A stretch of DNA of 64,000 nucleotides from an uncultured Gammaproteobacteria bacterium (lineage in GTDB: Bacteria > Pseudomonadota > Gammaproteobacteria > Nitrosococcales > Methylophagaceae), in assembly GCA_905181885.1 (NCBI GenBank), contig CAJIZI010000001.1:573765-637764 (forward strand), in the 5' to 3' direction. A program made the position numbers and the translations under genes. The notes below the pieces were generated by a model. It made no database searches. It was not told where the DNA came from and was given only the letters and a program-made list of their open reading frames with translations. Of the stretch, positions 2,138-62,206 are shown piece by piece (the first letter of the stretch is position 1; every line of letters starts with the position of its first letter).

Positions 2138-2166
2138 AAATATATTAATGAAGAAGAGGTAAGAAA

Positions 2167-2833: not shown

Positions 2834-2857
2834 CTGGCTGATTTGGAGGAAAAAATA

Positions 2858-10419: not shown

Positions 10420-10426
10420 TAATAGC

Positions 10427-49296: not shown

Positions 49297-49848
49297 TTAC
49301 CAATTGAGTAGCTCTTTTCTAAGAGATTCAGATAAAGAGTTTTCGGCTAACCATAGACCGAGGTAATATCTGGCAAAGCTGATGTTGGTGTTTTGATAAA
49401 GTAATTCATCATTAAAAAACAGAGAAAGTCCTTTATCATGATGAATATCTAGACGAAAGCGGTCACCACTAGTGACGTCTTGATAAAGATCGTGCAGAGC
49501 ATTGGTATCCCTTTGATATAAAGCCAGTTTATTTTTAGTGTGTTGGCGGCTGAGAACCTCTTCTGCACTATTAATTAACTGAGACTTTGAAAGAGACACT
49601 TTATAGCGTAGTTCAAGAGAAAAAGGATGGTTGCCTCTCAGAATCTGACTTGCTTGTATATCAGGGGCGGCATAGAGAGCAGCATCATAAACATCAATAA
49701 AGCCAAGCCATGTCGCTGTAGAGGTAGACTTTAATTCAACTTCGCTGCTTGATGCATGAAAATCAAGTTGCGAGGGTGGCATAGCCCAGCTAATATTAAA
49801 AAGTAAGGAATAAGAAACCCATACAAAAAGAAGGTGCTTTTTCATCAC
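49297..49848 (-). CDS. Chalcone-isomerase-like (fatty-acid-binding type) periplasmic protein
   Basis: A signal peptide is followed by TATWLGFIDVYDAALYA and YYLGLWL motifs, typical of the bacterial Chalcone_3-like family. Last gene of the minus-strand operon. Confidence 0.55.
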   Translation of the reverse strand: MMKKHLLFVWVSYSLLFNISWAMPPSQLDFHASSSEVELKSTSTATWLGFIDVYDAALYAAPDIQASQILRGNHPFSLELRYKVSLSKSQLINSAEEVLSRQHTKNKLALYQRDTNALHDLYQDVTSGDRFRLDIHHDKGLSLFFNDELLYQNTNISFARYYLGLWLAENSLSESLRKELLNW

Positions 49849-50379
49849 TTATGGGGTTTTGAAGGTGAGTGTAACTTCACCTAAAAAAACACCAAATTTT
49901 GTCATTTTCGCCCGATTAATGAGTACGCCATCTTCTTGTAAGAACATCCAATCATCAAACTGTACTTTAACGGTCCCATCTTTGTAAGGAAGATCTAGGG
50001 TATATGCCCAATTCAGGCTGTTACCGTAAGCTTTACCAGTAGCGTGTCCAATTACATCAGCTGCTCGACCCTCATAGTTATTGTCATCAATTTTTTTAAT
50101 AGTCCACACGCGCCGGTCTTTGGTTCCGTCAGAATATGTAAAGTCTTCTTCTAGTATTAGCTCTCCATCTACCATTTTACCAAGGATATCGACAGTAAAT
50201 TGCTTCTCAACATAACCGCTTCGGTTTTGGAATATGCCCCAAGCACGTGTTTGGCCGAGGAAATAGTCTTCTAAAATTAAGCGAGGTGTAGTATTTTTAT
50301 ACTGTTCAGTAGTCATATTGGTACAGCCAGAAAGGTTGAAAAGAATGAGTGATAATAAAGTTAAGAGGCTTTTGTTCAT
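49849..50379 (-). CDS. DUF3833-family lipocalin-like lipoprotein
   Basis: Lipobox LSGC. LEDYF.G...AWGIF..R.G and W....DDW.F motifs typical of DUF3833. Confidence 0.65.
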   Translation of the reverse strand: MNKSLLTLLSLILFNLSGCTNMTTEQYKNTTPRLILEDYFLGQTRAWGIFQNRSGYVEKQFTVDILGKMVDGELILEEDFTYSDGTKDRRVWTIKKIDDNNYEGRAADVIGHATGKAYGNSLNWAYTLDLPYKDGTVKVQFDDWMFLQEDGVLINRAKMTKFGVFLGEVTLTFKTP

Positions 50380-50380
50380 A

Positions 50381-51682
50381 TTATGGTTCCTCAGTTAGTT
50401 GCTGTTGTATATGTCGGTGTTGTTGGCGATTTAACGGGAAATTCCATATTGTCCAAGCAGCTAGGAGCTTAAAAGGAATGGGAAGGAGACCATAAAGCAG
50501 AGTAAGTCCTAATAAATTATTATCAGCGGGAGCTGTTTGTGTGTCAAAGCCTAAAAAGACTAACAAAGGAAAAGCAATACCGACAGCTAATGCCAGTGAT
50601 AGCTTCGTGGCCATACCCCAAAGGCCAAAGAAAAAACCACTTCGCTGCCCGCCTCCGCCGGCGCTATCAAGATCAATCACATCGGCTTGAATTGATGCAG
50701 GTAAGGCCATGTCGATACCTAAACTTAGCCCAGATAAAATACAGACAAGAAGAAAGGGCAAAAAGTCTCCTGCTCCTATGCTGGGGACCCATGCAAAAAC
50801 ACCCACAGCCCATAACATTGACACACCCCATACACGGTGTTTGTTATAACGCTTAGCGAGCTTCACACCGATGGGTAAGCCTATCAAACCACTGATAAAA
50901 TATGCTGATAATAACAGGCCAAACTGTTCGGGCAAGACCAAAACATAGGTCACAAATAGCAAGAAGAGAGTTGCAGGTAGGCCATTAGCGATGCCATTCA
51001 TAAAATAAGCAAAGAGTAATCGTATAAATAAGTGATTGCTTTTGAGTAAAGCAAACCCTGCTCGATAACTGATAGGTTGTACACGCCGGTTAGACTCGGG
51101 TACTTTGAGAACACAAATTAGGATAGTAATAGGAAGAAGAATAGTTAAAGATTGGGCGAGAACAAGTAGTGCCTTGCCAGGTTCGTCACTAGCAATACCC
51201 ATAGCTAAGGGTAAGCCTGCAGCAAATAAAGTACCTATTAAAACAAAGCTTTCTCGGCTGGCTGTAATTGTACTACGTTGGTCATAATTCCCAGATAATT
51301 CAGCTCCCCAGGCGGTATAGGGCAGAGTGAGTAGGCTCCATGCGAAATAAACAAGAATACTCCAGAGCAAAAGCCAATAAAAACCGCTTCCTTCAGGCGG
51401 AACAAAAAGTGCCCATAGGGCTATGATTAATAATGGTGTAGCTATAACCATTAACCATTTACGCCTTGACGGCAGAGGGAGCCAATCAGAGAATATCCCG
51501 ATCATGGGATCTGTGATGACATCACTAATACGTGCAATTAATAAAGCTAACCCGACAGTGGCAAGGCCAAGGCCCAATTGCTCAGCATAAAAAGTAGGTA
51601 AGTAAATATAGAGGGGCAAACCTAACGCGGCTAAGGGTAGCCCCGGCAGACCATAAAGCCAATAGCGAATAACTTGAGACAC
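50381..51682 (-). CDS. MFS transporter (GPH / MFS_2-like)
   Basis: About 12 TM helices. Start reassigned to the GTG at 51682, 2 nt after the upstream stop, because the track ORF start at 51772 would overlap the upstream gene by 88 nt. Confidence 0.7.
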   Translation of the reverse strand: MSQVIRYWLYGLPGLPLAALGLPLYIYLPTFYAEQLGLGLATVGLALLIARISDVITDPMIGIFSDWLPLPSRRKWLMVIATPLLIIALWALFVPPEGSGFYWLLLWSILVYFAWSLLTLPYTAWGAELSGNYDQRSTITASRESFVLIGTLFAAGLPLAMGIASDEPGKALLVLAQSLTILLPITILICVLKVPESNRRVQPISYRAGFALLKSNHLFIRLLFAYFMNGIANGLPATLFLLFVTYVLVLPEQFGLLLSAYFISGLIGLPIGVKLAKRYNKHRVWGVSMLWAVGVFAWVPSIGAGDFLPFLLVCILSGLSLGIDMALPASIQADVIDLDSAGGGGQRSGFFFGLWGMATKLSLALAVGIAFPLLVFLGFDTQTAPADNNLLGLTLLYGLLPIPFKLLAAWTIWNFPLNRQQHRHIQQQLTEEP

Positions 51683-51684
51683 TG

Positions 51685-52902
51685 TTAGTGTGGTTTTGAC
51701 ATTAAGTATTGATAAACTCCGGTGTGTTGCTGCCGGAAACCTGCTTCGCAGTATGACAAATAATATCGCCACATACGTATAAATTGCTCATCGTAACCAA
51801 GATCTTCTACTTGATGTACAACATCATTAAACCGCTGATGCCAAGCTAAAACAGTCTGCTCATAATGAGAACCGTAGTTAGTGGCTTGTTCGATTTTAAG
51901 TCCTGCCTGTTCTGCATGTTGAGAAAAAATCTCAGGAGAAGGAAGCATACCTCCAGGGAAGATATAGCGTTGAATAAAATCCACATTTTGTCGATAGTGG
52001 TCAAAATACTGCTCGTCAATGGTTATTGTTTGTAGGGCTATTTTGCCTCCTGATTTTAGACGTGCAAATAACATTTCAAAAAAGCCAGGCCAATAAGTCT
52101 CGCCAACGGCTTCAAACATCTCAATACTGACAATATGATCAAACTGTTCTTCTATATCACGGTAATCTTGTAATCGTAAATCAACAATTGAATCAAAACC
52201 TGCATCACGAATTCGCTGTTGTCCCCATGTTAATTGTTCAGTCGATAAGGTAACTCCGGTTACTTTATAACCTTGCTTAGCGGCATGTTCAGCAAAGCCT
52301 CCCCAACCGCAGCCCACTTCTAGAATGTGTTGTCCAGGCTTTGCACCGAGAGAAGAAAGCAGGAGTTCATATTTTCGAGTTTGTGCTTGTTCAAGGCTAT
52401 CAGCTGGATCAGCAAATATAGCACTTGAATAGGTCATCGTTGAGTCAAGCCATAACTGATAGAAGTCATTACCTAAATCATAATGTGCGGAGATATTGCG
52501 GCGGCTACCTCGTTGACTGTTTCGTCGAGTTATATGACGCAGGCGGTTAAATAAGCGAATAAAGAAATTAGCTTCAAGGTGGGTTGATAATTCTTCTAAG
52601 TTGAGTGTAGCCCAGTAGAGGAAGTCAGATAGACTACTTGTGTCCCACTCGCCTTGCATATAGGCCTCGGCAAAGCCAATATCACCATCTCTGCTTAACT
52701 TTTTAATGATTTTTAGGCTTTTATGAATGGTGATGTTTGCATCGGGTCCGGGCTCCTTTCCCTCAACAAGGTAAGTTTCGGCATCAACTGTAATATGAAG
52801 GCGACCTCGCTTACATTTTGATAACACTTGATAGAGCAGCTTGATTGTGAGCGGCGCACTGGGATCAGGAAGTAATCTTATTTTCGAGTTTTCACTAACC
52901 AT
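51685..52902 (-). CDS. Cyclopropane-fatty-acyl-phospholipid-synthase-family SAM methyltransferase (UfaM-like)
   Basis: 405 aa. HYDLGNDFY, ILEVGCGWGGFA and FEAVG motifs of the CMAS family. Confidence 0.8.
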   Translation of the reverse strand: MVSENSKIRLLPDPSAPLTIKLLYQVLSKCKRGRLHITVDAETYLVEGKEPGPDANITIHKSLKIIKKLSRDGDIGFAEAYMQGEWDTSSLSDFLYWATLNLEELSTHLEANFFIRLFNRLRHITRRNSQRGSRRNISAHYDLGNDFYQLWLDSTMTYSSAIFADPADSLEQAQTRKYELLLSSLGAKPGQHILEVGCGWGGFAEHAAKQGYKVTGVTLSTEQLTWGQQRIRDAGFDSIVDLRLQDYRDIEEQFDHIVSIEMFEAVGETYWPGFFEMLFARLKSGGKIALQTITIDEQYFDHYRQNVDFIQRYIFPGGMLPSPEIFSQHAEQAGLKIEQATNYGSHYEQTVLAWHQRFNDVVHQVEDLGYDEQFIRMWRYYLSYCEAGFRQQHTGVYQYLMSKPH

Positions 52903-53660
52903 TCGCTTTTGACCTCTTGCTGTTTATTTTTGTCATATGAATGAAACTTTCCACCGCGTATCCATATTTTCAATGCGTGCCAATGGATCATGAACATGAT
53001 TTTGAAAGTCATCATTGGCATCATAAAAAAGGCCTTGAGCAAATGTAAGTTGTTTAAGGTTTTAATTTTAGAATTTTGAGATGCAATAAAATGAAGTTGA
53101 TCATTTTGGTATTCGTTGATTAAAATACCGAATCTAGCTTCAGATTGAGTAAATTTAAAGTGATATTGTTGATCCATATCAATGAATGGGGATACATAAA
53201 AGCGCTTTTCTGCAATGCATTCCACCGGCCACTTTAGGCTTTGTCCTTCATTGTGATGGACATAATGATAAGCATCTCCAAAGGTATTACTGACCTCACT
53301 GATAACCGCAACAGTTTCCCCATCTGAACCATCACAATACCAAACAGAGATGGGATTAAAGCCATAACCCAAAACACGAGGGAAGCATGATAATCGGATG
53401 CGATCAACATTGTCTATTCCTGCATCAGATAATGTTTTTTCTACCCAAGGCCGCCAGGCCGTTCCATCTCTAGGACCATGATCCTGCTTTCGGAGACTGA
53501 GTAAATTAAACCGCTCTAAACTAAGCCATCTCAAAGAAGAAGCTTCTTGCTCAATAAGATCTATATCAATCAATAACCCGAAGACCTTATAGGTAAACTG
53601 GTAGGCTACAGGGAGTATGCGTTGGTGCATGACATGCCCAAAAAAGAGCTTACTTGCCAT
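52878..53660 (-). CDS. DUF1365-family protein (UfaO-like)
   Basis: 260 aa. G.V.H.R..P..Y.F.Y start and the FNPISVWYC motif typical of DUF1365. Overlaps both neighbours. Confidence 0.7.
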   Translation of the reverse strand: MASKLFFGHVMHQRILPVAYQFTYKVFGLLIDIDLIEQEASSLRWLSLERFNLLSLRKQDHGPRDGTAWRPWVEKTLSDAGIDNVDRIRLSCFPRVLGYGFNPISVWYCDGSDGETVAVISEVSNTFGDAYHYVHHNEGQSLKWPVECIAEKRFYVSPFIDMDQQYHFKFTQSEARFGILINEYQNDQLHFIASQNSKIKTLNNLHLLKAFFMMPMMTFKIMFMIHWHALKIWIRGGKFHSYDKNKQQEVKSEWLVKTRK

Positions 53661-54948
53661 TAGCTACTCCCTGTTCCCAAGGAATAGGAACGTTTAACTC
53701 TCTAGCGATAGAAACAGCAGAACTCAGCGCATCCTCATGGAAGCCATAACCAAAGTAACTTCCTGCAAACCAAGTTCTATTTTGACCCTGTAACTTATAA
53801 AGTTGTTTCTGAGCCCCCATCGCACGATTATCGAAAACAGGGTGCATATAATTAATTCTACGAATAATCTTATGAGGAGCAATTTTATGAATTGGGTTTA
53901 AGCTAACAAAAAAGTTTTGTGAGTCATCTAGGCCCTGTAATGCATTCATCCAATAACTGACAGACACCGAAGGAGTAGTCTCACCACTCTGCTTTGCAAG
54001 ATAATTCCAGCATGACCAAACTTTTGAGAGTGTTGGCATGAGATTGGGATCAGTATGTAAATAAGTATCATTTTCTTGATAGCGGAATGAAGATAACAAG
54101 TCTTGTTCAAGTTTGGACTTATTTATGAGTAGAGATAAAGCTTCATCAGCATGAGTTGCAATAATAACTTGGTCTACATTAAGTTCTTGCCCGTCTTCTA
54201 ATGTAATGACAACGGAATCAGTTTTTCGATCTATCTTGGTGGCCCCATTATTGATAATCGTTTCTCCAGGAAACGAATCTAACAACTTATCGACATAGCG
54301 TTGGCTTCCACCGACAACGGTTCGCCACTGAGGGCGGTCTTTTACGTTTAATAAGCCATGATTATCAAAAAACTGAGCAAAACTTTTAGCAGGGAACGAT
54401 TGCATTTGTTGAGGTGGGCAAGACCAAATAGCTGCAGCCATGGGTAGCAAATAATCATCCTGCATTGGTTTACCAATGCGTAGATCAGAGAGGAAGTCAC
54501 CTAAAGTGAGTTTAGAGTCAGTTTGATTATTACTGATAAGTGCTTTGGCATTTCGATTAAACTTAAGGATGTCATAAACTAACTTGATAAATCGTGGAGA
54601 TAACAGATTTCTCCGTTGGGCAAATAAAGTATCTAGATTGTTACCGGCATATTCCAGGCCTGAATTTAAGATCGAAGCAGAGAAGGTCATGTCTGTCACT
54701 TGTGTTTTTACACCAAGAGTATTTAGCAAACCGACTAAATTTGGGTAGTTTGGTTCGTTATAGACAATAAATCCTGTATCGACAGCAGTAACAATACCTG
54801 TCTTTTCATTAGCCACTGAAATGGTATTGGTGTGCCCGCCAATATAGTTATTTTTGTCGATCAAAACTACTTTGTACCGTTGACTTAATAGCCATGCACT
54901 AGCCATTCCAGCAATACCAGTTCCTATGACGGCTATTTTCTTAGTCAA
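53650..54948 (-). CDS. FAD-dependent oxidoreductase, amine-oxidase-like (UfaD-like)
   Basis: 432 aa. IAVIGTGIAGMASAWLL dinucleotide-binding motif. C-terminal WFAGSYFGYGFHEDAL. Confidence 0.75.
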   Translation of the reverse strand: MTKKIAVIGTGIAGMASAWLLSQRYKVVLIDKNNYIGGHTNTISVANEKTGIVTAVDTGFIVYNEPNYPNLVGLLNTLGVKTQVTDMTFSASILNSGLEYAGNNLDTLFAQRRNLLSPRFIKLVYDILKFNRNAKALISNNQTDSKLTLGDFLSDLRIGKPMQDDYLLPMAAAIWSCPPQQMQSFPAKSFAQFFDNHGLLNVKDRPQWRTVVGGSQRYVDKLLDSFPGETIINNGATKIDRKTDSVVITLEDGQELNVDQVIIATHADEALSLLINKSKLEQDLLSSFRYQENDTYLHTDPNLMPTLSKVWSCWNYLAKQSGETTPSVSVSYWMNALQGLDDSQNFFVSLNPIHKIAPHKIIRRINYMHPVFDNRAMGAQKQLYKLQGQNRTWFAGSYFGYGFHEDALSSAVSIARELNVPIPWEQGVANGK

Positions 54949-55016
54949 AATGTTTTCCTTAAGCTCGTAATAGAATTATGACCAATATAAGCTTTATTTA
55001 TCATAAGCTTTATTTA

Positions 55017-55934
55017 TCATAATATTTTCTTTCCTTTAGTTAAGATGTTGTTTAGTGCAGGTGCAAGACGGGGATATGTAAAATTAAACCCATTTTCTAA
55101 TGCTCGCTGAGGTACTGCACGTTGCCCTGTTAATAATAAAGAAGACATTTCTCCTAAGAGTATTTTTAATAGCCATTTAGGTGCAGGAAGCAGTTTGTAT
55201 CGGTGTAGTTGTTTAGCAAGCTCAGTGGTGAACTCATGATTAGTAACAGGGTTGGGGGCAGAGGCATTAAAAACACCTTTTAAATCCTTATTCGATGCTA
55301 AAAAGATTAATAAATTAATCATGTCAGAAATATGGATCCAAGGCATGTACTGATGGCCGTCACCTAGAGTGCCTCCTAAATTGAATTTAAAGGGCAATAA
55401 CATTTTTTGTAACATGCCACCCTTTGATGCCAACACTAAACCTGTTCTAACGATACACACTCTTATACCTGCTTTACCTGCTTGCAATGCTTGCTGTTCC
55501 CAAGCAGCACAGAGCTTATGGGTGTATTCATCGTGATATTTAGATTCTTCCGTTAAAATTTGGTCACCACTATCACCATACCAACCAACGGCTGAGCCGC
55601 TAATGAAACATTCTGGCTTTTGTTTTCTATTGAGGATCCAATTAACAAGCTCTCGTGTTGTGTTGATGCGACTGGACTCTAGCAACTTTTTACGTTTATT
55701 TGTCCATTTAGCGTTAGCAATCGGTTCACCTGCAAGGTTTATCACAATATTTATAGTGCTATCAGGTAATATTTCGGTTAAAGATTGAATAGCTTTAACG
55801 TTGATGCCACATTTATCTTTAACAGTATTAGGGGTTCTACTAATCACAGTTACATTGTGTCCTTCAGCTATTAACTGTTGACATAATTTTGAGCCAATTA
55901 GACCTGATCCACCGGATATAAGGTAGTGTTTCAT
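55017..55934 (-). CDS. TIGR01777-family (YfcH-like, DUF1731) NAD-dependent epimerase/dehydratase-fold protein
   Basis: 305 aa. ISGGSGLIGSKL Rossmann motif and a C-terminal DUF1731-like L..GF.F.YP segment. Confidence 0.7.
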   Translation of the reverse strand: MKHYLISGGSGLIGSKLCQQLIAEGHNVTVISRTPNTVKDKCGINVKAIQSLTEILPDSTINIVINLAGEPIANAKWTNKRKKLLESSRINTTRELVNWILNRKQKPECFISGSAVGWYGDSGDQILTEESKYHDEYTHKLCAAWEQQALQAGKAGIRVCIVRTGLVLASKGGMLQKMLLPFKFNLGGTLGDGHQYMPWIHISDMINLLIFLASNKDLKGVFNASAPNPVTNHEFTTELAKQLHRYKLLPAPKWLLKILLGEMSSLLLTGQRAVPQRALENGFNFTYPRLAPALNNILTKGKKIL

Positions 55935-56078: not shown

Positions 56079-56282
56079 TTATTTAAACCATTCAAACGGG
56101 CGTTCACCAGCAATTTTGAAATACAAAGACATATTGATCATATGTACAACAAGCAATGCAATGCCAATCCCAACAGCCCATAATGGGTTTCTGAAGTGCT
56201 CATGTGCACCAATGGCAACAAGACCATAAAATGCGATAGCTGTCCAGATAACCATAACTATTAAAGCTTTGAAAGAAGCCAT
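56079..56282 (-). CDS. Small two-TM membrane protein of unknown function (67 aa)
   Basis: The ATG at 56282 has GGAG 6 nt upstream. Two hydrophobic helices (ALIVMVIWTAIAFYGLVAIG, LWAVGIGIALLVVHMI). Third gene of the AlkB-like operon. Confidence 0.55.
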   Translation of the reverse strand: MASFKALIVMVIWTAIAFYGLVAIGAHEHFRNPLWAVGIGIALLVVHMINMSLYFKIAGERPFEWFK

Positions 56283-56350
56283 ATTTATCTCCAATTTAAA
56301 GTTTAAGTAACGAAGCTAACTTAATAACCGCGGCTTATTTTTTCTTTCAG

Positions 56351-57424
56351 TTACTGTGGTTTGTGACTCTTATCTAGGAATTTATCATAGAATATCGAAT
56401 CTTTGGTAATACCGTTTTTCTTGAATACACTAATAGATGCGTCAATCATGCCGGGTGGACCACAAAGATAAGCTTGGCCCCTGAGTGCCTTTCTAGAATC
56501 TTTGATAAAATCTACACAAGAACCTCTATTTCCTTCCCATGAGCTATCTTCTGGCTCTTCTGATAGGCAAGGAATATATTCGAACCTTCCAAGACCTTTA
56601 CTTACCCAATCTGACCCTAATTTTTCAATTAAGTCACCAAGGTATAGATCTTTTTGTTCCCGAGCGCCAAAGATGAAGCGAACATCAGCCATTCTGCCTG
56701 ATTCAAGTGCATCTTGTAGAACACCTACAATAGCACTCATGCCACTACCACCTGCGACACAGGTCATTTGAGCAGGCTTTTTGGCCAAACCAAATACACC
56801 ATAGGGGCCGCTCATCGTCATAGTTTCTCCGGTACGATCACCCTCAAACAACCAGTCGGTAAATTCACCACCAGGGACTTTTCTGATGTAGAACAAGAAT
56901 TCTTTTTGACCAAGACTTGGTGCTGTTGCAAATGAGTAACTACGCCCTTCGTCAAGATGGGGTAGTTTCAGATCTGCATACTGACCAGCTTTATACAAAA
57001 GCTCTGTCGATGAGACTGCAGAGTCGTCAATTTCAATGACAAGCTCTTTGATATCATGTGTTAAGTCACGGATCTGCTTAATAACTGTTTCCGATTCCCA
57101 ATGAAGTTGTCCTTCACCAGCAAGAAGTTCAACTTCAACTTCTATATCAGTCTTGAGTGCCGTTTGACACGCTAGAATGTAGTTATTTTGTAGGTCCTCG
57201 GCTTCTAAGGTATATGCAAAATCAGCTAAAGGATTTATTTTACCTTCAATTAAGCGACATTTGCATGAACCACAGCTGCCTACTCGACAATCATGTGGCC
57301 AAGGTATTCCGGCTTCGAGCGCTGTCTGTAAAAGGTTGTCACCAGCTTTTACAGTCACCACTTCAGTGCCATTTATCTTGGCGGTAGTTTCTTGTTTTTC
57401 TTTACTTTTGAAAAAACCAAACAT
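56351..57424 (-). CDS. XylA/CymAb-type electron-transfer protein: N-terminal plant-type [2Fe-2S] ferredoxin fused to an FNR-like FAD/NAD(P)H reductase
   Basis: CRVGSCGSCKC...ILACQT (Cx4Cx2C...C), RSYSFA FAD motif and GGSGMSAI NAD motif. Lies directly downstream of the membrane hydroxylase gene. Confidence 0.8.
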   Translation of the reverse strand: MFGFFKSKEKQETTAKINGTEVVTVKAGDNLLQTALEAGIPWPHDCRVGSCGSCKCRLIEGKINPLADFAYTLEAEDLQNNYILACQTALKTDIEVEVELLAGEGQLHWESETVIKQIRDLTHDIKELVIEIDDSAVSSTELLYKAGQYADLKLPHLDEGRSYSFATAPSLGQKEFLFYIRKVPGGEFTDWLFEGDRTGETMTMSGPYGVFGLAKKPAQMTCVAGGSGMSAIVGVLQDALESGRMADVRFIFGAREQKDLYLGDLIEKLGSDWVSKGLGRFEYIPCLSEEPEDSSWEGNRGSCVDFIKDSRKALRGQAYLCGPPGMIDASISVFKKNGITKDSIFYDKFLDKSHKPQ

Positions 57425-57476
57425 AATTTATTTATCTTTAAGTTATGAGTAGCAACGAGTATGCGTTACTAGTTTT

Positions 57477-57516
57477 AAAAAAAAATGGGCCCAATGTCAA
57501 AGACATCGAGCCCATT
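57477..57516 (-). terminator. Intra-operon hairpin + T9 (terminator/attenuator) between hydroxylase and reductase genes
   Basis: On the minus strand: AATGGGCTCGATGTCTTTGACATTGGGCCCATT followed by T9. An imperfect stem with two mismatches. Confidence 0.55.
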
Positions 57517-57526
57517 CAGGTTTTAT

Positions 57527-58708
57527 CTAGATTGGAGCATGTTTTGAATAATCATCTGGTACGGCGTAGCCAGATTGTTCATTAATTCTTGCAGCAATCT
57601 CTAACTCGCCTTCTGTAGCGAAATCTCTGTCCCATGTTGCTAATTTTTTCTTCATCATCATATGGTATAGAGGTGGAATTAACGCTACAGTAAACTCTGT
57701 AAAGTAACCCCAACGAGCGTTTGGTGAACCTACTTCATCTAATTCCCAGAAGTGAGTTTCGCCACGGTCATGGTGATCACCTTGACGACCGATTTCAATG
57801 AAGAACCAACTTGTGAACAAGTTGCTGTTATCCCATGAATGACGGTAATCAATTGGTTGACCTTTTTCACGAATAAGACCGTAATGCTCCATGTAGTTCA
57901 ACGCTTCTAACTCAAAGTTAGAAATAGTTAATACTAAGAACATTGCAGCTACACCCATAACACCACCAGCATAAGTAAATAATACTAATGTTGGTAAGCT
58001 CATGAAGTAACCACGGATCCAACGGTTTTCAGTTGAAAGGAATGATTTGCCTAATTTAGCTAGACGAGTCTGTTCCATTCTGAACAAGAATTTTGATTGA
58101 CCCATGTGTGACAACCAGAAATGTCTGTAGATAGAACGACCGCGTGGCGAAGTAGCAGGATCATCTTCATGTGCTAGTTCTAGATGGTGGTTGTATACGT
58201 GAGCATACGCAAAGTGTGAAGAACCACTTAAACCCATCATCAAACGAGAAATAACAAAGCTGAAGCCTTTAGTATGAGATAACTCGTGTCCGTAGATAAT
58301 ACCGATACCAGCGAAGATACCTGTAGAAGCTGCAGCAACTGCTAACTCAAGACCTGTAATACCATTTGTCATCGGTATCATGCCGTATAACATAGTAGTT
58401 GTGATAGCAGTACCATCTACATACTGCATTACACGCCATGCTAGAGCAACTTGTAACAAAGCAAATACAGGTAACATAACGTACATTACTGTGTTTTGTA
58501 ATGTTGGCATGCCCATTGTATCGCCGTTGTCATCAAAGCCAGCACCTGGTGGGTGGAAAGGCATAGTGATTGTATCAAGAATGATACCGACACCAAATAG
58601 TGCGATACCTACCCAGACGAACATTCCGCCCAGTATAATACTTGCTAGCGTTACTAATATTAGTATTGGTGCTAGCCAGTATCTGATGTTAATTAAGAGC
58701 TTTTTCAT
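57527..58708 (-). CDS. AlkB/XylM-family integral-membrane non-heme di-iron hydroxylase (fatty-acid-desaturase superfamily), divergent member
   Basis: 393 aa and multi-TM. His boxes HELSH, HVYNHH and NYMEHYGL. The last box reads GRQGDHH instead of the AlkB-type RHSDHH. No rubredoxin gene is nearby. Confidence 0.75.
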   Translation of the reverse strand: MKKLLINIRYWLAPILILVTLASIILGGMFVWVGIALFGVGIILDTITMPFHPPGAGFDDNGDTMGMPTLQNTVMYVMLPVFALLQVALAWRVMQYVDGTAITTTMLYGMIPMTNGITGLELAVAAASTGIFAGIGIIYGHELSHTKGFSFVISRLMMGLSGSSHFAYAHVYNHHLELAHEDDPATSPRGRSIYRHFWLSHMGQSKFLFRMEQTRLAKLGKSFLSTENRWIRGYFMSLPTLVLFTYAGGVMGVAAMFLVLTISNFELEALNYMEHYGLIREKGQPIDYRHSWDNSNLFTSWFFIEIGRQGDHHDRGETHFWELDEVGSPNARWGYFTEFTVALIPPLYHMMMKKKLATWDRDFATEGELEIAARINEQSGYAVPDDYSKHAPI

Positions 58709-58842
58709 GGTATAAATACCCCGTAAAAATTAATTTTAATATATTGTTGATAAACAACTAGGTAAGCAAAAACTTACTGTTTATATTAGTCGAAAAATTT
58801 CGAACTAGTAGCCATCATATTTGACAACCTTGACATTTGTAA

Positions 58843-58882
58843 TACGTAATTATACAAAGAAAGATTATTGTATAACTACGTA
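58843..58882. promoter_or_regulatory. Operator copy 1: inverted repeat TACGTAATTATACAA-N10-TTGTATAACTACGTA
   Basis: 15-10-15 inverted repeat with one mismatch, about 150 nt upstream of the AlkB-like ATG. Two TTGACA hexamers (58821-58826 and 58830-58835) lie just to its left. Confidence 0.6.
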
Positions 58883-59021
58883 TATTGTTACTAACTTTTA
58901 AACTCTATAAAGTTATATTATTCTTATAAATCAATTGTATAAGTAAAAATTTATATTACTTTTCTCAACCAATGTATTCAGAACCAATGAGCATTCTATG
59001 CTGAGAGTAGCTTGTTTGAAA

Positions 59022-59060
59022 TACGTAATTATACAAAGAAATCATATTGTATAACTACTA
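59022..59060. promoter_or_regulatory. Operator copy 2: GTAATTATACAA-N10-TTGTATAACTAC with overlapping candidate promoter
   Basis: Same arms as copy 1, 179 bp to its right. The right arm TTGTAT (59047-59052) sits 17 nt from TACTAT (59070-59075), a plausible sigma70 promoter about 25 nt before the ybgA-like ATG. Confidence 0.6.
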
Positions 59061-59098: not shown

Positions 59099-59905
59099 AT
59101 GAAAATTAAAGTTGGATTAAGCAGCTGTCTGATGGGTAACAACGTTCGTTTCGATGGTGGCCATAAACACTCGAAGATGTGTAGTCAGAATTTAGCTCGT
59201 CATTTTGATTTCATCTCAGAAGGTTCAGAATTTGGAATTGGGATGGGAACCCCCAGGAAACCAATTCGTCTGATTGGTGATGTTAACTCACCTTTAACCG
59301 TTTCAACTCAGGACAATGCTATCGACCATACTAAAAAAATGGTTGAATTTAGCTACCAAAAAGCCAAAGAATATTCAGAGCTACCTATAGAAGAGTCAGG
59401 CAGGTTAATAGCCCCCTCGTTGGGTGAAAACTTTATTACCCGTGTTTTTGCTTATCATAAATGGCAGCAATTAAAACAGGTTGGCTTTACCTACCACGGT
59501 ATCATCGAGTTTCACTCAAGCTATAAATATAGCTTGATGGCACATTCACCAGCCAGCTACATTGAGCTTGGGAGAATGTTAGCTGATGCGGGTAAGCGCG
59601 AGGTCGATGATTTAGCTGAGTGCTACTTCCCCTTGTTAATGAGTGCACTAGGTAAAGTTGCGACACGAAAAACACACACTAACGTGCTGATGCATATACA
59701 GGGCTACTTAAAAAGAGTGCTCTCTAGCATAGAGAAACATGAGTTATCCAAGCTTATTAATCAGTATCGTTTAGCTCAAATACCCTTAATCGTTCCGATA
59801 ACATTATTAAAACACCATTTTAGTAATCATCCTCATTCCTATATAGCTAAGCAAGTCTATCTAGAGCCTTACCCTGATGACTTGAGCTTACGCAATGCAA
59901 TCTAA
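59099..59905 (+). CDS. YbgA-like DUF1722 protein with a degenerate, truncated N-terminal DUF523-like segment
   Basis: The N-terminus KVGLSSCLMGNNVRFDGGHK resembles DUF523. The usual PVCPE is SEGSE here and about 55 residues (the SPSCG region) appear to be missing. The C-terminal two thirds (ENFITRVFAYHKW...YKYSLMAHS...HTNVLMHIQGY) fit DUF1722. It lies upstream of the photolyase gene, like E. coli ybgA-phr. Confidence 0.65.
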   Translation: MKIKVGLSSCLMGNNVRFDGGHKHSKMCSQNLARHFDFISEGSEFGIGMGTPRKPIRLIGDVNSPLTVSTQDNAIDHTKKMVEFSYQKAKEYSELPIEESGRLIAPSLGENFITRVFAYHKWQQLKQVGFTYHGIIEFHSSYKYSLMAHSPASYIELGRMLADAGKREVDDLAECYFPLLMSALGKVATRKTHTNVLMHIQGYLKRVLSSIEKHELSKLINQYRLAQIPLIVPITLLKHHFSNHPHSYIAKQVYLEPYPDDLSLRNAI

Positions 59906-60803
59906 AAATGAAATTAATATAAGTGAGGTATGCCAACAAACAGGTGTTGCTGCAGTTACATTGAGAGCATGGGAAAGGCGTTATGGGCTCATAAAACCAA
60001 AAAGAACACCAAAAGGTCACCGCTTATATAGCCAGGCTAACATTCAAGAAATAATTAAGATTGTTGGCTGGCTGAATCGTGGAGTGGCAATTAGTAAAGT
60101 TGTAGAATTACTGTCTGCTGCAGAAACGCCAACGCAAGTCAGCGGAAATGAAGAGTCATGGCAGGAAGTACAGCAAGAACTGTTAAGTATACTCATAGAT
60201 CTTAAGCAGAGAAGTTTGAATCCACTTCTCGATAAGTTGAATAAATCAATGCCATTTGAAAGCTTGTGTGAAAAAGTTTACCAACCACTTTTGCATCAAC
60301 TAATGGAACGTTGGCAAAGTAAGCAACTGGGCTATCAATTAGAACAGCAGCTCTGGCAGCAATGCTGGCAGAGGCAGGTAACTCTCATGGCCTTGCGTGC
60401 TGATAAGCAAAAATCGCGAGTTAATTGTTGGTTAGTCAACTTAGACAACCAATCGTCGGCATTTGATTATTGGTTTTTTTATGCTCTTTTATTACAGTCG
60501 GGTATTCAGATCAATGCCATTAATCAGGTGAGTGACTTGAGTGCTCTGACAAGGCTTAGAAATTCACTAGAACAACCCTTAATTATTTTCGGTGATAACA
60601 AAATGGTTACGCAAGAAATTAATCAAGTAGTTAAGGCCAAGGCTCTATGGGGCAGGGATTCAATTGTCATTGGTCTTGTGGCTGACATACATCAGAAGCT
60701 ATTTGTAAATATGGAGATTGAGCACATAGGTGGCAATGCCATTACATGTTGGCAGTCAAGTTGTTACCAGTCATGGGTTGGGCGTTTGGCAGCAAAGGGA
60801 TGA
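59895..60803 (+). CDS. MerR-family transcriptional regulator, LitR-like architecture without recognisable B12 ligands (class II LitR-like)
   Basis: MerR HTH (ISEVCQQTGVAAVTLRAWERRYGLIKPKRTPKGHRLY) plus a C-terminal domain of about 200 aa. Overlaps the ybgA-like stop. Its own stop overlaps the photolyase ATG (ATGA). Confidence 0.7.
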   Translation: MQSKNEINISEVCQQTGVAAVTLRAWERRYGLIKPKRTPKGHRLYSQANIQEIIKIVGWLNRGVAISKVVELLSAAETPTQVSGNEESWQEVQQELLSILIDLKQRSLNPLLDKLNKSMPFESLCEKVYQPLLHQLMERWQSKQLGYQLEQQLWQQCWQRQVTLMALRADKQKSRVNCWLVNLDNQSSAFDYWFFYALLLQSGIQINAINQVSDLSALTRLRNSLEQPLIIFGDNKMVTQEINQVVKAKALWGRDSIVIGLVADIHQKLFVNMEIEHIGGNAITCWQSSCYQSWVGRLAAKG

Positions 60804-62206
60804 GAAATCAGTTAGTTTGGTTTCGTAATGATCTACGGATAAATGATAATCCGGCCTTATTTTATGCAAGTGAAAGCGGCGAGCCCACTATTGCTGTTTA
60901 TGTTGCAACGCCACAGCAATGGCAATTACACGATGATGCTCATAGTAAAATAGATTTTTGGCGACGAAATCTACATTGTTTGTATGATTCGCTTGCAGAA
61001 CTCAATATCACTTTGCATTTTTTTCAGGTACCGACTTATCAACAGGTCCCAGATCTAATTACATCAGTTTGTGAGCAATGGAATATAAGTCAACTACATT
61101 TTAATCAACAGTATGCTGTCAATGAACAGGAAAGAGATCAGCATGTCGTCGATGTTTGTAGTCAGATAGATGTGCAAACACACAGCTATAATGAGCAGTT
61201 ATTATTAACACCAAAAAGTGTTCGAACTAAAGTTGGTGAGCCGTTCAAAGTCTTTACGCCCTTTGCAAGACAGGCAAGACAACAAATGCAAGAGCCCTTG
61301 GTGATGCTACCAGCACCCAAAAGACAAAATAGTATTAAAGTGACTCGCTTGCGTGAAGAGCTTGAGCTTCAAGACGTATCTTGGGTATCTGTAGGAAAGG
61401 CTGTACAAGATATGTGGCCTGCAGGTGAAGAGTCAGCAGAAGTTAAACTAATCCATTTCTATGAGAACAATATTCAGAGTTACGAACAAAACCGAGACTC
61501 CCCATCGGTTTCCGGCACCAGCCAGCTATCTCCTTACCTAGCTAGTGGTGTTATTTCGATAAAACAATGTTGGCATGCTACAACTCACTATTGTGGGCGT
61601 TCAGATAGCGTAATAGTATGGCAGAATGAATTGTTATGGCGTGAGTTTTATAACCACATTCTTATTGATTACCCTCAAATATCAAAACATAAGCCATGGA
61701 AAATAAAAACAGACACTATCCAGTGGCGAGATAATGAGACTGAATTGAGAGCCTGGCAACTAGGGCAAACTGGTTTTCCAATTATTGATGCAGCGATGCG
61801 TCAGTTGCTCAGTTGTGGCTGGATGCACAACCGCCTAAGAATGATTACAGCGATGTTTTTAAGTAAACACTTAATGATCGATTGGCGATTAGGCGAACGA
61901 TGGTTTATGAAACATCTCATTGATGGAGATTTAGCTGCTAATAATGGAGGTTGGCAGTGGTGCGCATCAACAGGCACCGATGCAGTACCTTATTTTAGAC
62001 TATTCAATCCTGTCAGACAGTCTGAAAGATTCGATCCAGAAGGGAAGTTTATCCGCCATTATTTACCAGAGCTATCAGCTTTAAGTAATAAAGAAATTCA
62101 TTTCCCAATAAAAAACAGACCTGAAGAATACCCGATGCCTATAATTGATCTAGCTGATGGGCGTAAGCGAGTCCTTGCAGAATTCAAGGCATTAGGTACG
62201 AAGTGA
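60800..62206 (+). CDS. phrB: Deoxyribodipyrimidine photolyase (class I CPD type)
   Basis: Start at MRNQLVWFRNDLRINDNPAL. TGFPIIDAAMRQL, GWMHNRLRMI, NNGGWQW and YFRLFNP motifs. Confidence 0.92.
   Translation: MRNQLVWFRNDLRINDNPALFYASESGEPTIAVYVATPQQWQLHDDAHSKIDFWRRNLHCLYDSLAELNITLHFFQVPTYQQVPDLITSVCEQWNISQLHFNQQYAVNEQERDQHVVDVCSQIDVQTHSYNEQLLLTPKSVRTKVGEPFKVFTPFARQARQQMQEPLVMLPAPKRQNSIKVTRLREELELQDVSWVSVGKAVQDMWPAGEESAEVKLIHFYENNIQSYEQNRDSPSVSGTSQLSPYLASGVISIKQCWHATTHYCGRSDSVIVWQNELLWREFYNHILIDYPQISKHKPWKIKTDTIQWRDNETELRAWQLGQTGFPIIDAAMRQLLSCGWMHNRLRMITAMFLSKHLMIDWRLGERWFMKHLIDGDLAANNGGWQWCASTGTDAVPYFRLFNPVRQSERFDPEGKFIRHYLPELSALSNKEIHFPIKNRPEEYPMPIIDLADGRKRVLAEFKALGTK

What the first reader, a model, noticed from the sequence alone, without database searches (positions are those of the whole stretch)
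56079..58708. Divergent AlkB/XylM-type membrane hydroxylase + XylA-type reductase + 67-aa membrane protein, placed where a lipid-modifying rather than an alkane-catabolic role is suggested
Seen: a three-gene operon.
- The first gene encodes a 393-aa multi-TM protein with HELSH, HVYNHH and NYMEHYGL boxes. Its last box reads RQGDHH where AlkB enzymes have RHSDHH, so one of the nine conserved His ligands appears replaced by Gln.
- The partner is a [2Fe-2S]-ferredoxin/FNR fusion of the XylA/CymAb type. There is no rubredoxin or rubredoxin reductase.
- A small two-TM protein follows.
- No alcohol/aldehyde dehydrogenase, AlkS-type regulator or porin is nearby.

The operon is wedged between the furan-fatty-acid operon and the photolyase operon and shares the duplicated operator region with the latter.

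Inference: it may hydroxylate or desaturate a membrane lipid or quinone-like substrate as part of the photo-oxidative response, rather than initiating alkane or xylene catabolism. I know of no described function of this kind.
Basis: partly seen in the sequence, partly recalled or inferred. Interest (0 to 1): 0.7.

Follow-up and report, generated by a model that had tools for sequence, protein, structure and literature searches.

The report
Light-controlled AlkB-like membrane oxygenase variant
This marine methylotroph carries an uncharacterised relative of the alkane-oxidising enzyme AlkB in which one "invariant" iron-binding histidine is always glutamine, and its promoter carries the binding site of a known light-response repressor, so it is probably switched on by light rather than used to grow on oil.

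Summary
The minus strand at 56079-58708 encodes three proteins:
- a 393-aa AlkB-fold membrane di-iron protein;
- a XylA-type [2Fe-2S]-FNR reductase, 41% identical to pWW0 XylA;
- a conserved 67-aa two-TM protein.

The His-to-Gln change is real. Q309 aligns with FtAlkB His311, an Fe2 ligand. It defines a tight clade: 117 of the 120 closest homologues have RQ[GAS]DHH, all 41 outgroup relatives keep His, and the next relatives are at most 38% identical.

The "duplicated operator" is two exact copies of the published class II LitR box T(G/A)TACA-N12-TGTA(C/T)A. A third exact copy lies upstream of two GST genes whose homologues sit beside this oxygenase in other genomes (3 hits in 64 kb, 0.01 expected).

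Synteny with photolyase/ufa genes appears in only 1 of 76 other loci, and strong terminators separate the gene from the reductase and from the ufa operon. Clade-wide partners are GSTs, the reductase, the small TM protein, FadL/TodX porins, truncated globins and NorQ/NorD-like proteins. A second, ORF-identical copy often sits next to a CarH/LitR-family regulator.

Best reading: a light-inducible copy of a new AlkB-type oxygenase that works with GSTs on an unknown hydrophobic substrate. A lipid substrate is unproven.

The parts
57527..58708 (-). Q-clade AlkB-fold membrane di-iron oxygenase, 393 aa. It keeps 8 of the 9 AlkB His ligands plus the Fe2 Glu (E274). Q309 replaces the Fe2 ligand equivalent to FtAlkB His311.
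57474..57517 (-). Intrinsic terminator directly after the oxygenase gene: a 16-bp stem followed by a U9 tract. It gives either a monocistronic oxygenase transcript or attenuated read-through into the reductase gene.
   Evidence: dG -24.7 kcal/mol, z -6.7, 0 of 200 shuffles as stable
56351..57424 (-). XylA-type NADH:[2Fe-2S] ferredoxin-FNR reductase, 357 aa, with domain order Fer2 - FAD - NAD.
   Evidence: (41% identity to pWW0 XylA, E 8e-93)
56079..56282 (-). Clade-specific 67-aa two-TM protein and candidate third subunit. No Pfam or NCBIfam family.
   Evidence: found downstream of the oxygenase in roughly 45 of 80 related loci by tblastn; conserved sequence; called as 67 aa in L085
56021..56058 (-). 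Intrinsic terminator after the small TM gene. It separates this unit from the yfcH/ufaD/ufaO-type operon.
   Evidence: dG -14.1 kcal/mol, z -6.1, followed by a U-run
58836..58879 (.). Operator repeat copy 1. It contains LitR box 1, TATACA-N12-TGTATA (58851-58874). On the minus strand the box abuts the predicted oxygenase promoter (-35 TTACAA around 58838-58843, -10 TATGAT 58814-58819).
59015..59058 (.). Operator repeat copy 2. It contains LitR box 2 (59030-59053) in front of the DUF1722-MerR-photolyase operon.
59099..62206 (+). Divergent operon: DUF523/DUF1722 (YbgA-like), a LitR/CarH-family MerR regulator (59895-60803, no B12 His motif) and a photolyase (60746-62206).
1859..1882 (.). Third exact LitR box in the window, about 285 nt upstream of the tandem GST-like genes.
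2152..3641 (+). Two tandem GST-like genes, apparently frameshifted in this assembly. They are 43-56% identical to the second and third GSTs of the oxygenase-GST-reductase-smallTM-GST-GST-FadL clusters of other genomes.
49297..55934 (-). Context only. This is an operon of the RSP1091-1087 type: YfcH-like SDR, UfaD-like amine oxidase, DUF1365 (UfaO-like), CFA-synthase-like protein, MFS_2, DUF3833 and a chalcone-isomerase-like protein.

Best explanation
The locus holds a light-inducible copy of a previously undescribed sub-family of AlkB-fold membrane di-iron oxygenases, called the Q-clade here.

**Shown**
- The protein has the AlkB fold.
- It keeps eight His ligands and the Fe2 glutamate. The Fe2 ligand His311 (FtAlkB numbering) is invariably Gln.
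- It is encoded next to a XylA-type NADH-[2Fe-2S] reductase and a clade-specific 67-aa two-TM protein.
- Its promoter region carries an exact class II LitR operator. The same operator is duplicated in front of the divergent LitR-like MerR/photolyase operon and occurs again in front of unlinked GST genes that are the oxygenase's usual neighbours elsewhere.

**Inferred**
- In the dark the LitR-like MerR represses the oxygenase, the phr operon and the GSTs. Light relieves repression, as in Pseudomonas, where a LOV protein acts as anti-repressor.
- NADH electrons pass from FAD to the [2Fe-2S] cluster to the di-iron site. The enzyme uses O2 to hydroxylate, epoxidise or desaturate a hydrophobic molecule that reaches the active site from the membrane.
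- Phi-like GSTs then conjugate or reduce the product.
- The strong terminator after the oxygenase gene sets a high oxygenase-to-reductase ratio.
- Other genomes keep a second, ORF-identical copy under a CarH/LitR-family regulator. The locus therefore looks like a regulatory isozyme: the same catalyst under light control.

The substrate is not identified. I consider it more likely to be a light-linked hydrophobic compound (a photo-oxidised or unsaturated lipid, or a biogenic alkene or hydrocarbon) than an n-alkane used for growth.
For: **Fold**
- AF2 model: pLDDT 93, pTM 0.92.
- The only significant PDB matches are AlkB 8F6T and 8SBB, TM 0.72-0.75.

**Ligand change and clade**
- Q309 aligns to the first His of RHSDHH.
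- That His is the Fe2 ligand His311 (PMC10113152). The nine His are described as invariant and indispensable (PMC10110569).
- 117 of 120 closest homologues have RQ[GAS]DHH. All 41 non-clade relatives keep His.
- Full-length clade members fall under one 50%-identity representative. The next full-length relatives are at most 38% identical.

**Reductase**
- 41% identical to XylA.
- Co-located with the oxygenase in 32 loci. L003 and the Rhodobiaceae loci have a stand-alone 2Fe-2S ferredoxin instead.

**Small TM protein**
- Found in roughly 45 of 80 loci.

**LitR box**
- Published consensus T(G/A)TACA-N12-TGTA(C/T)A with a repressor mechanism (PMC9758184).
- 3 exact hits in the window against 0.01 expected.
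- The same box lies upstream of the gene in L003, L005 and L025, each in a different neighbourhood.
- Boxes with at most one mismatch are 18-fold enriched in upstream regions.
- The -35/-10 promoter is conserved next to the box.

**Regulator**
- The MerR's best NCBIfam hits are MlrA and CarH. It has a weak match to the B12-binding_2 four-helix bundle and lacks the B12 His motif. This fits the published definition of class II.
- A CarH-like MerR lies divergent to a solo oxygenase copy in 23 further loci (24 with L003).

**GST link**
- GST is the commonest neighbour, present at 37 loci.
- The window's box-bearing GSTs are their homologues.
- They are Phi-like catalytic GSTs.

**Regulatory isozyme**
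- Within-genome paralogues are 94.7-100% identical across the ORF, with unrelated flanks.
Against: - No expression or binding data exist. The LitR box is a sequence match only.
- No LOV or other photoreceptor gene was found among the ORFs scanned in the window.
- The window's regulator lacks a B12 motif, so its light input is unknown.
- L001 and L002, close relatives of the NorQ/VWA type, lack the box.
- The window's GST genes look frameshifted. They may be pseudogenes or assembly errors.
- FadL/TodX porins and a XylA-like reductase are also hallmarks of aromatic and alkane catabolic operons.
- Methylophaga has been implicated in hydrocarbon degradation (from my own recollection; the paper was not read here).
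- The chemistry (hydroxylation, epoxidation or desaturation) and the role of Gln309 are purely inferred.
Confidence: 0.5

Rival explanations
1. It is an ordinary catabolic hydrocarbon hydroxylase of the XylMA, CymA or AlkB kind, initiating growth on alkanes or alkyl-aromatics. The position next to the photolyase operon is an accident of insertion.
For: - AlkB fold.
- Reductase 41% identical to XylA.
- Many clade loci carry a FadL/TodX-type porin, as the xyl upper operon carries XylN.
- Sources annotate homologues as alkane 1-monooxygenase, K00496.
- The nearest outgroup (Polaromonas fusion, Hydrocarboniclastica) sits in alkane-type clusters with GMC oxidoreductase, acyl-CoA ligase, aldehyde dehydrogenase and AraC.
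Against: - It forms a separate clade, at most 38% identical to anything else.
- A His ligand described as indispensable in AlkB is invariably replaced.
- The window holds no alcohol or aldehyde dehydrogenase, rubredoxin or AlkS/AraC regulator, and none appear among the commonest conserved neighbours.
- Hosts are small-genome methylotrophs, sulfur-oxidising sponge symbionts and Thiotrichales.
- LitR boxes lie upstream in four different contexts.
- GSTs are the dominant partner.
Confidence: 0.2
2. One reading: it hydroxylates or desaturates an endogenous membrane lipid or quinone as part of the photo-oxidative stress response. It would act alongside or downstream of the furan-fatty-acid enzymes.
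For: - PF00487 superfamily.
- Immediately upstream of a UfaD/UfaO/CFAS-type operon in the window and in L003.
- LitR-box control together with photolyase.
- At about 20 of the regulator-linked loci the divergent CarH-like regulator sits directly upstream of fabA; at L074 the two ORFs abut.
- The AlkB substrate tunnel opens into the membrane (PMC10113152).
Against: - phr/ufa synteny appears in only 1 of 76 other loci.
- A terminator separates it from the ufa operon.
- FuFA synthesis is complete with UfaM, UfaD and UfaO.
- FadL/TodX porins and one to three GSTs in most other loci suggest an imported or damaged substrate rather than biosynthesis.
- The fabA linkage is confined to related lineages.
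Confidence: 0.2
3. The reductase, and possibly the small TM protein, serves the neighbouring UfaO (DUF1365) oxygenase, whose reductant is unknown, rather than the AlkB-like protein.
For: - UfaO's reductant is stated to be unknown (PMC7380195).
- In the window a terminator lies between the oxygenase and the reductase.
- The reductase lies just upstream of the ufa-type operon.
Against: - The reductase and small TM protein accompany the AlkB-like gene in 32 loci or more that have no ufa genes.
- A second terminator separates them from the ufa operon.
- L003 has only a ferredoxin there.
- The reductase is XylA-like, the known partner type of AlkB-fold XylM.
Confidence: 0.05
4. The His-to-Gln change marks a catalytically dead or non-oxygenase protein, such as a sensor, a scaffold or a mono-iron protein.
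For: - His ligands were reported as indispensable in GPo1 AlkB.
- NorQ/VWA-type metal-insertion proteins sit next to some clade members, which could mean an unusual metal site.
Against: - The other eight His and the Fe2 Glu are invariant.
- The clade is 64-98% identical across Gamma- and Alphaproteobacteria.
- It keeps a dedicated electron-transfer partner.
- It is held identical between paralogues by gene conversion. This is purifying behaviour typical of an active enzyme.
- Gln can ligate iron (my own chemical knowledge, not tested here).
Confidence: 0.05

Closest known systems
AlkB alkane 1-monooxygenase (P. putida GPo1 type; Fontimonas thermophila structures 8F6T and 8SBB)
   Same: - Same fold (TM 0.72-0.75).
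- Same four motif positions: eight of nine His and the Fe2 Glu.
- Substrate tunnel opening to the membrane.
- O2- and NADH-dependent di-iron chemistry is expected.
   Different: - About 23-24% structure-aligned identity (29% by tblastn to an OCT-type AlkB over 66% of the query).
- The Fe2 ligand His311 is Gln.
- HELxHT instead of HELxH(K/R), and AHVYNHH instead of EHxxGHH.
- The electron donor is a [2Fe-2S]-FNR fusion, not rubredoxin plus rubredoxin reductase.
- It has an extra 67-aa two-TM partner.
- There are no alk-type downstream genes.
- It sits under a LitR box.
XylM/XylA xylene monooxygenase (TOL plasmid pWW0) and the related CymAa/CymAb
   Same: - Two-component architecture: an AlkB-fold membrane hydroxylase plus an N-terminal plant-type ferredoxin / C-terminal FNR reductase.
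- The reductase is 41% identical to XylA.
- Other clade loci carry a FadL/TodX porin, as xyl carries XylN.
   Different: - The hydroxylase is only about 28% identical to XylM and does not group with it.
- XylM keeps the His (EITNHINHH).
- There are no xylB/xylC-type dehydrogenases.
- Partners are GST, globin and NorQ/VWA proteins.
- Hosts are not aromatic degraders.
Ferredoxin/FNR-linked or -fused AlkB-like proteins (Polaromonas pPNAP01 752-aa fusion; Hydrocarboniclastica plasmid gene)
   Same: - Nearest outgroup in the NJ tree and by identity (32-34%).
- Same type of reductase (41% identical), either adjacent or fused.
   Different: - They keep RHSHHH.
- They sit with AraC regulators and with GMC oxidoreductase, acyl-CoA ligase and aldehyde dehydrogenase genes, which is a classical alkane pathway.
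- They have no small TM protein, no GST and no LitR box.
Class II LitR (PplR1/PmlR2) light regulon of Pseudomonas
   Same: - Identical operator consensus.
- MerR-family regulator encoded beside the photolyase gene.
- The published regulon includes photolyase, the furan-fatty-acid synthase UfaM and several genes of unknown function.
- Repressor logic, with the operator at or near the -35 hexamer.
   Different: - No AlkB-like oxygenase is named among the PplR-regulated genes in the text I could read (the primary 2020 paper was not available).
- No LOV partner was found in the window.
- The organism is a marine methylotroph.

Membership tests
AlkB (alkane 1-monooxygenase, rubredoxin-dependent) | AlkB-type six-TM fold | tested here: met
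   AF2 model with pLDDT 93. Foldseek against the PDB finds only 8F6T and 8SBB, probability 1.0, TM 0.72-0.75.
AlkB (alkane 1-monooxygenase, rubredoxin-dependent) | Nine invariant His ligands (HExxH, HxxxHH, NYxEHYG, HxxHH) | tested here: not met
   Eight of nine are present. Q309 replaces the first His of the last box. This holds in 117 of 120 clade members. The ligand role comes from PMC10113152 and PMC10110569.
AlkB (alkane 1-monooxygenase, rubredoxin-dependent) | Rubredoxin (AlkG) and rubredoxin reductase as electron donors | tested here: not met
   No rubredoxin in the 64-kb window. The adjacent partner is Fer2-FAD-NAD.
AlkB (alkane 1-monooxygenase, rubredoxin-dependent) | Match to a curated NCBIfam model | tested here: not met
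   No NCBIfam family at E <= 0.01.
AlkB (alkane 1-monooxygenase, rubredoxin-dependent) | Terminal hydroxylation of n-alkanes | not testable with these tools
   Needs an enzyme assay.
XylM/XylA-type two-component monooxygenase | Adjacent XylA-type reductase (N-terminal plant-type 2Fe-2S, C-terminal FNR) | tested here: met
   41% identity over 342 residues to pWW0 XylA, E 8e-93. The domain order is confirmed.
XylM/XylA-type two-component monooxygenase | Hydroxylase groups with XylM/CymAa | tested here: not met
   27.7% identity to XylM. In the NJ tree the clade is a separate long branch and XylM pairs with OCT-type AlkB. This was NJ only; CymAa was not included.
XylM/XylA-type two-component monooxygenase | Catabolic context (benzyl alcohol and benzaldehyde dehydrogenases) | tested here: not met
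   No xylB, xylC or xylW homologues in the window.
Pfam PF00487 membrane FA_desaturase/hydroxylase superfamily | Profile match above the gathering score | tested here: met
   89.7 bits against a cut-off of 29.7.
Class II LitR (LitR/CarH family) light regulon | Operator T(G/A)TACA-N12-TGTA(C/T)A at the promoter | tested here: met
   Exact boxes at 58851-58874, 59030-59053 and 1859-1882, against 0.01 expected by chance. The consensus is from PMC9758184.
Class II LitR (LitR/CarH family) light regulon | Cognate MerR-type LitR with a four-helix-bundle domain and no B12-binding His motif | tested here: inconclusive
   The MerR at 59895-60803 has best NCBIfam hits MlrA (2.5e-21) and CarH (1.3e-18). 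It has weak PF02607 (E 0.009) and MlrA_helical hits, and no Wx9EH or DxHxxG motif. No direct comparison with PplR1 was possible.
Class II LitR (LitR/CarH family) light regulon | Light-dependent de-repression through a photoreceptor (short LOV) | not testable with these tools
   No LOV domain among the ORFs scanned, but only 64 kb is available. Expression data are needed.
Furan fatty acid (Ufa) pathway | Conserved co-occurrence or co-transcription with ufaD/ufaO | tested here: not met
   Synteny appears in 1 of 76 other loci. A terminator lies between the units. The pathway is genetically complete without it (PMC7380195).

The most novel reading that the evidence does not exclude
The Q-clade would be a new functional class of AlkB-fold enzyme. 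Its altered Fe2 site (His3-Gln-Glu), its dedicated 67-aa membrane subunit and, in some genomes, a NorQ/NorD-type metal-insertion pair would give it chemistry different from terminal alkane hydroxylation, for example epoxidation or conversion of unsaturated or peroxidised lipids or biogenic alkenes. Together with Phi-like GSTs it would form a light-induced oxidise-and-conjugate defence or scavenging pathway. This pathway would be widespread in surface-ocean methylotrophs and sponge symbionts. Cells would keep two gene-converted copies so that the same catalyst can be driven by two different signals.
Probability: 0.3. Interest if true: 0.8.

Novelty: new variant of a known kind. Interest (0 to 1): 0.62.

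Why it matters
- **Survey bias.** Sources label these genes alkane 1-monooxygenase (K00496), and they occur in Tara, Fram Strait and sponge metagenomes. If they are not alkane hydroxylases, alkB-based estimates of marine hydrocarbon-degrading potential are inflated by this clade.
- **A natural ligand experiment.** Both 2023 AlkB structure papers treat the nine-His set as conserved, and one calls it invariant and indispensable. A large, strongly conserved clade with Gln at an Fe2 position tests how that ligand tunes reactivity.
- **A new member of the light response.** A membrane oxygenase and GSTs under a LitR operator would add an enzymatic arm to the bacterial light and photo-oxidative response. 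So far that response is known for photolyase, furan or cyclopropane fatty-acid enzymes and folate or pterin genes.
- **Concerted evolution.** ORF-limited gene conversion between a regulator-linked solo copy and an operon copy is a clean example of concerted evolution serving dual regulation.

Tried and rejected
- **Literature search for a characterised member.** Searches combining Methylophaga or Methylophagaceae with alkB, alkane 1-monooxygenase, fatty acid desaturase, GST or ferredoxin reductase found nothing relevant. So did a search combining alkane 1-monooxygenase, photolyase and light.
- **Primary P. putida LitR paper.** PMC7515241 is not held. The consensus was taken from PMC9758184 instead.
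- **Photoreceptor partner.** Pfam scans of 20 further window ORFs found none.
- **Paralogues and partner genes in the window.** A tblastn for a second oxygenase copy or for NorQ/VWA, FadL or globin partners found only the GSTs.
- **B12-dependent CarH.** I checked whether the regulators at the 24 regulator-linked loci are B12-dependent. None has the Wx9EH or DxHxxG motif, although the B12-domain architecture is detectable. Phased TTGTC repeats in their intergenic regions were seen but not analysed statistically.
- **Geometry of Q309.** I could not inspect it in the model because model coordinates are not exposed to scripts.
- **One long operon with the ufa genes.** Rejected because of the two terminators.
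- **Synteny as evidence of a lipid role.** Rejected as a general argument after the 80-locus survey.

Full report
**1. What is there**

- 57527-58708, 393 aa.
- 56351-57424, 357 aa.
- 56079-56282, 67 aa from ATG (71 aa from an upstream TTG).

Pfam gives the following:
- The first is PF00487, FA_desaturase (E 3e-25).
- The second is Fer2 + FAD_binding_6 + NAD_binding_1.
- The third matches nothing.

NCBIfam has no model for the first protein.

The second protein is 41% identical over its whole length to XylA of TOL plasmid pWW0 (E 8e-93). It is also 41% identical to the reductase beside an AlkB-like gene on a Hydrocarboniclastica plasmid. "XylA-type" is therefore correct.

No rubredoxin, Zn-ADH, aldehyde dehydrogenase, GMC oxidoreductase or AraC regulator is encoded anywhere in the 64-kb window.

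The contig comes from a Fram Strait metagenome. The window also carries H4MPT-pathway genes. Together with the nearest relatives, this points to a Methylophagaceae-like marine methylotroph.

**2. The His-to-Gln change is real and defines a clade**

- phmmer against PDB sequences finds only the two Fontimonas AlkB entries. It aligns EIGRQGDHH with HLQRHSDHH.
- An AlphaFold2 model (pLDDT 93, pTM 0.92) matches only those AlkB structures in the PDB, with TM 0.72-0.75. SCD1-type and Scs7p-type desaturases or hydroxylases were not among the significant matches.
- In FtAlkB the three His of this box are His311, His314 and His315. His311 ligates Fe2 together with His171, His272, His315 and Glu271 (PMC10113152).
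- The nine His are described as invariant and indispensable (PMC10110569).
- Here Q309 stands at the His311 position. The other eight His and the Glu are kept: H141, H170, H174, H175, H275, H312 and H313 are invariant, and H145 and E274 are present.
- Of the 120 closest database homologues (at least 67% identical), 117 have RQ[GAS]DHH. The other three gave no readable box.
- All 41 more distant relatives examined keep His. These include XylM, an OCT-type AlkB and ferredoxin-fused AlkB-like proteins.
- In an exhaustive search of 1.8 billion cluster representatives, full-length clade members fall under a single 50%-identity representative. The next full-length hits are at most 38% identical.
- The clade also has HELxHT and AHVYNHH where AlkB has HELxH(K/R) and EHxxGHH.

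**3. Transcription units**

- A canonical intrinsic terminator follows the oxygenase stop codon: a 16-bp stem, dG -24.7 kcal/mol, z -6.7, then U9.
- A second terminator follows the small TM gene: dG -14.1 kcal/mol, z -6.1, then a U-run.
- "Three-gene operon" is therefore at best an attenuated unit.
- The unit is not co-transcribed with the downstream YfcH / UfaD-like / DUF1365 (UfaO-like) / CFAS-like operon. That operon corresponds to R. sphaeroides RSP1091-1087.

**4. The operator**

- The 390-bp divergent region holds a 44-nt direct repeat, 91% identical, at 58836-58879 and 59015-59058. Each copy contains the palindrome TATACA-N12-TGTATA.
- This matches the published binding consensus of P. 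putida class II LitR PplR1, 5'-T(G/A)TACA-N12-TGTA(C/T)A-3', exactly. P. mendocina PmlR2 binds the same consensus as a dark-state repressor, and a LOV protein relieves that repression (PMC9758184).
- The degenerate consensus has three exact matches in the window, against 0.01 expected from shuffles. Two are the repeats. The third, at 1859-1882, lies upstream of two tandem GST-like genes (2152-3641).
- Those GSTs are 43-56% identical to the GSTs found beside this oxygenase in other genomes.
- The MerR gene of the divergent operon (59895-60803) has MlrA and CarH as its best NCBIfam hits. It has a weak hit to the B12-binding_2 four-helix bundle and no B12 His motif. This is consistent with, though not proof of, a class II-like LitR.
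- Upstream regions of six close relatives share a -35 TT(N)CAA / -10 TAAAGT or TATGAT promoter. The box lies immediately upstream of it.

**5. Survey of related loci**

A scan of one genome per species returned 80 loci. The hosts were:
- Methylophaga and Piscirickettsiaceae;
- Thiotrichales and Thiothrix-like MAGs;
- sulfur-oxidising sponge symbionts (Ca. Porisulfidus);
- Ca. Oxydemutator;
- Rhodobiaceae.

Several genomes carry more than one copy.

The photolyase/ufa arrangement recurs only in L003, a complete MAG chromosome (OX044353.1). There the same LitR box sits between the MerR and the oxygenase, and a stand-alone 2Fe-2S ferredoxin replaces the reductase.

The commonest neighbours of 76 clade genes are:

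| Neighbour | Loci |
|---|---|
| GSTs (often two or three copies; Phi-like by PDB similarity) | 37 |
| Reductase | 32 |
| Small TM protein (tblastn, of 80 loci) | ~45 |
| FadL/TodX-type porin | 19 |
| Truncated globins | 17 |
| CbbQ/NorQ AAA+ and VWA pair, divergent, in Methylophaga-type loci | 10-13 |

At 23 further loci a solo oxygenase copy is divergent from a 320-aa MerR. For L046 that MerR's best NCBIfam hit is CarH over its full length, with a corrinoid-domain-like C-terminus. It lacks the B12 His motif. At about 20 of these loci the MerR lies directly upstream of fabA, and at L074 the two ORFs abut.

Exact LitR boxes also precede the oxygenase in L005 (a NorQ/VWA-type locus with a 91%-identical copy) and in L025, each in a different neighbourhood. 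Boxes with at most one mismatch are 18-fold enriched in the 450 nt upstream of clade genes compared with the rest of the loci.

**6. Concerted evolution**

In an NJ tree the two copies from one genome pair with each other rather than with copies in the same context from other genomes.

| Comparison | Nucleotide identity |
|---|---|
| L034/L035, L044/L045, L046/L049 (ORF, same genome) | 100% |
| L052/L054 (ORF, same genome) | 99.6% |
| L072/L077 (ORF, same genome) | 96.6% |
| L002/L003 (ORF, same genome) | 94.7% |
| 200-nt flanks of these pairs | unrelated (44-72%, mostly ~55%) |
| Same-context copies between genomes | 74-80% |

Unless they are assembly artefacts, they indicate gene conversion confined to the ORF. 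The cell keeps one catalyst under two regulatory regimes: an operon copy with GST, reductase and small TM protein, and a copy linked to a LitR/CarH-type regulator. The window's gene is of the second kind.

**7. Interpretation**

Shown:
- an AlkB fold;
- an altered Fe2 ligand set;
- a XylA-type electron donor;
- a clade-specific small membrane partner;
- LitR operators at this gene, at the phr operon and at the GST genes;
- no alk or xyl downstream genes;
- no conserved ufa linkage.

Inferred:
- The gene is repressed in the dark and induced by light together with photolyase and the GSTs.
- The enzyme uses NADH and O2 to oxidise a hydrophobic, membrane-partitioning substrate.
- GSTs process the product further, by conjugating an epoxide or electrophile, or by reducing a hydroperoxide.

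The identity of the substrate is open. It could also be a damaged lipid, or an imported biogenic alkene or hydrocarbon.

"Lipid-modifying" and "conserved with phr/ufa" are not.

**8. Rivals**

- **A true catabolic hydroxylase.** This remains possible because of the FadL/TodX porins and the XylA-like reductase, and because the outgroups sit in alkane-type clusters. It fits poorly with the hosts, the missing dehydrogenases, the ligand change and the LitR boxes.
- **The reductase serves UfaO.** This is unlikely, because the reductase travels with the oxygenase in 32 or more loci that have no ufa genes.
- **A dead enzyme.** This is unlikely, given strong conservation, a retained redox partner and gene conversion.

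**9. Novelty**

I found no paper describing this clade, its Gln ligand, its small subunit or its light-type regulation.

It is best filed as a new variant of the AlkB/XylM kind of membrane di-iron oxygenase. It is not a member of AlkB proper, because the nine-His and rubredoxin criteria fail. It is not a member of XylM either, because the clade criterion fails.

Noticed in passing
L034/L035, L044/L045, L046/L049, L052/L054, L072/L077, L002/L003 (oxygenase ORFs at about 10001-11180 of each locus): Two copies of the oxygenase gene in one genome are 94.7-100% identical in nucleotide sequence across the ORF. Their 200-nt flanks are unrelated. Copies in the same context from other genomes are only 74-80% identical. 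This looks like ORF-limited gene conversion, or assembly collapse.
   Followed up: partly
window 2152-3641 and 1859-1882: Two tandem Phi-like GST genes are preceded by an exact LitR box. The second is split between two frames (2858-3358 and 3345-3638) and the first aligns over only about 135 of 250 residues. They are therefore either pseudogenes or carry assembly indels.
   Followed up: partly
window 13207-13810: PlsY (G3P_acyltransf) matches only profile positions 1-62 of 164 in the 157-aa ORF, and an overlapping 137-aa ORF follows. This may be another frameshift and suggests indel errors in the contig.
   Followed up: no
L012 6803-18459; also L002, L007-L010, L013: The Methylophaga-type loci have a large conserved cluster. 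An acyl-CoA-dehydrogenase-like gene, a PAS histidine kinase and a LuxR-type response regulator come first, followed by a divergent CbbQ/NorQ AAA+ and VWA pair. Then come the oxygenase, truncated globin, GST, reductase, small TM protein, FadL-like porin, a second truncated globin, SCO4226-like protein, nitronate-monooxygenase-family protein, an unknown 400-aa protein and an alpha/beta hydrolase. A NorQ/NorD-like pair next to a membrane di-iron enzyme suggests assisted metal insertion.
   Followed up: partly
L074 9733-10000, L046 9812-10000 and the other regulator-linked loci: The intergenic regions between the CarH-like MerR and the solo oxygenase contain three or four TTGTC/TTGTA motifs at roughly 11-bp phasing, and GTACA...TGTAC palindromes. 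From memory, this resembles the 11-bp direct-repeat operators described for CarH. It was not tested statistically.
   Followed up: no
L074 8243-9732 (and about 20 similar loci): The CarH-like MerR gene sits directly upstream of fabA on the same strand, and at L074 the two ORFs abut at 8761. This suggests a regulator-fabA operon divergent from the oxygenase.
   Followed up: no
window 59099-59905: The DUF523/DUF1722 (YbgA-like) protein at the head of the MerR-photolyase operon matches only positions 1-91 of 141 of the 2-thiouracil desulfurase (DUF523) profile. L003 lacks this gene entirely.
   Followed up: no
window 17-1781: DUF447 and a 4-HFC-P synthase fragment (tetrahydromethanopterin and methanofuran-related genes) mark the organism as a methylotroph.
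   Followed up: no
L003 11263-11574; L030-L032, L038: In some loci a stand-alone 103-112-aa plant-type 2Fe-2S ferredoxin takes the place of the ferredoxin-FNR fusion between the oxygenase and the small TM gene. The FNR module is therefore dispensable in cis.
   Followed up: partly
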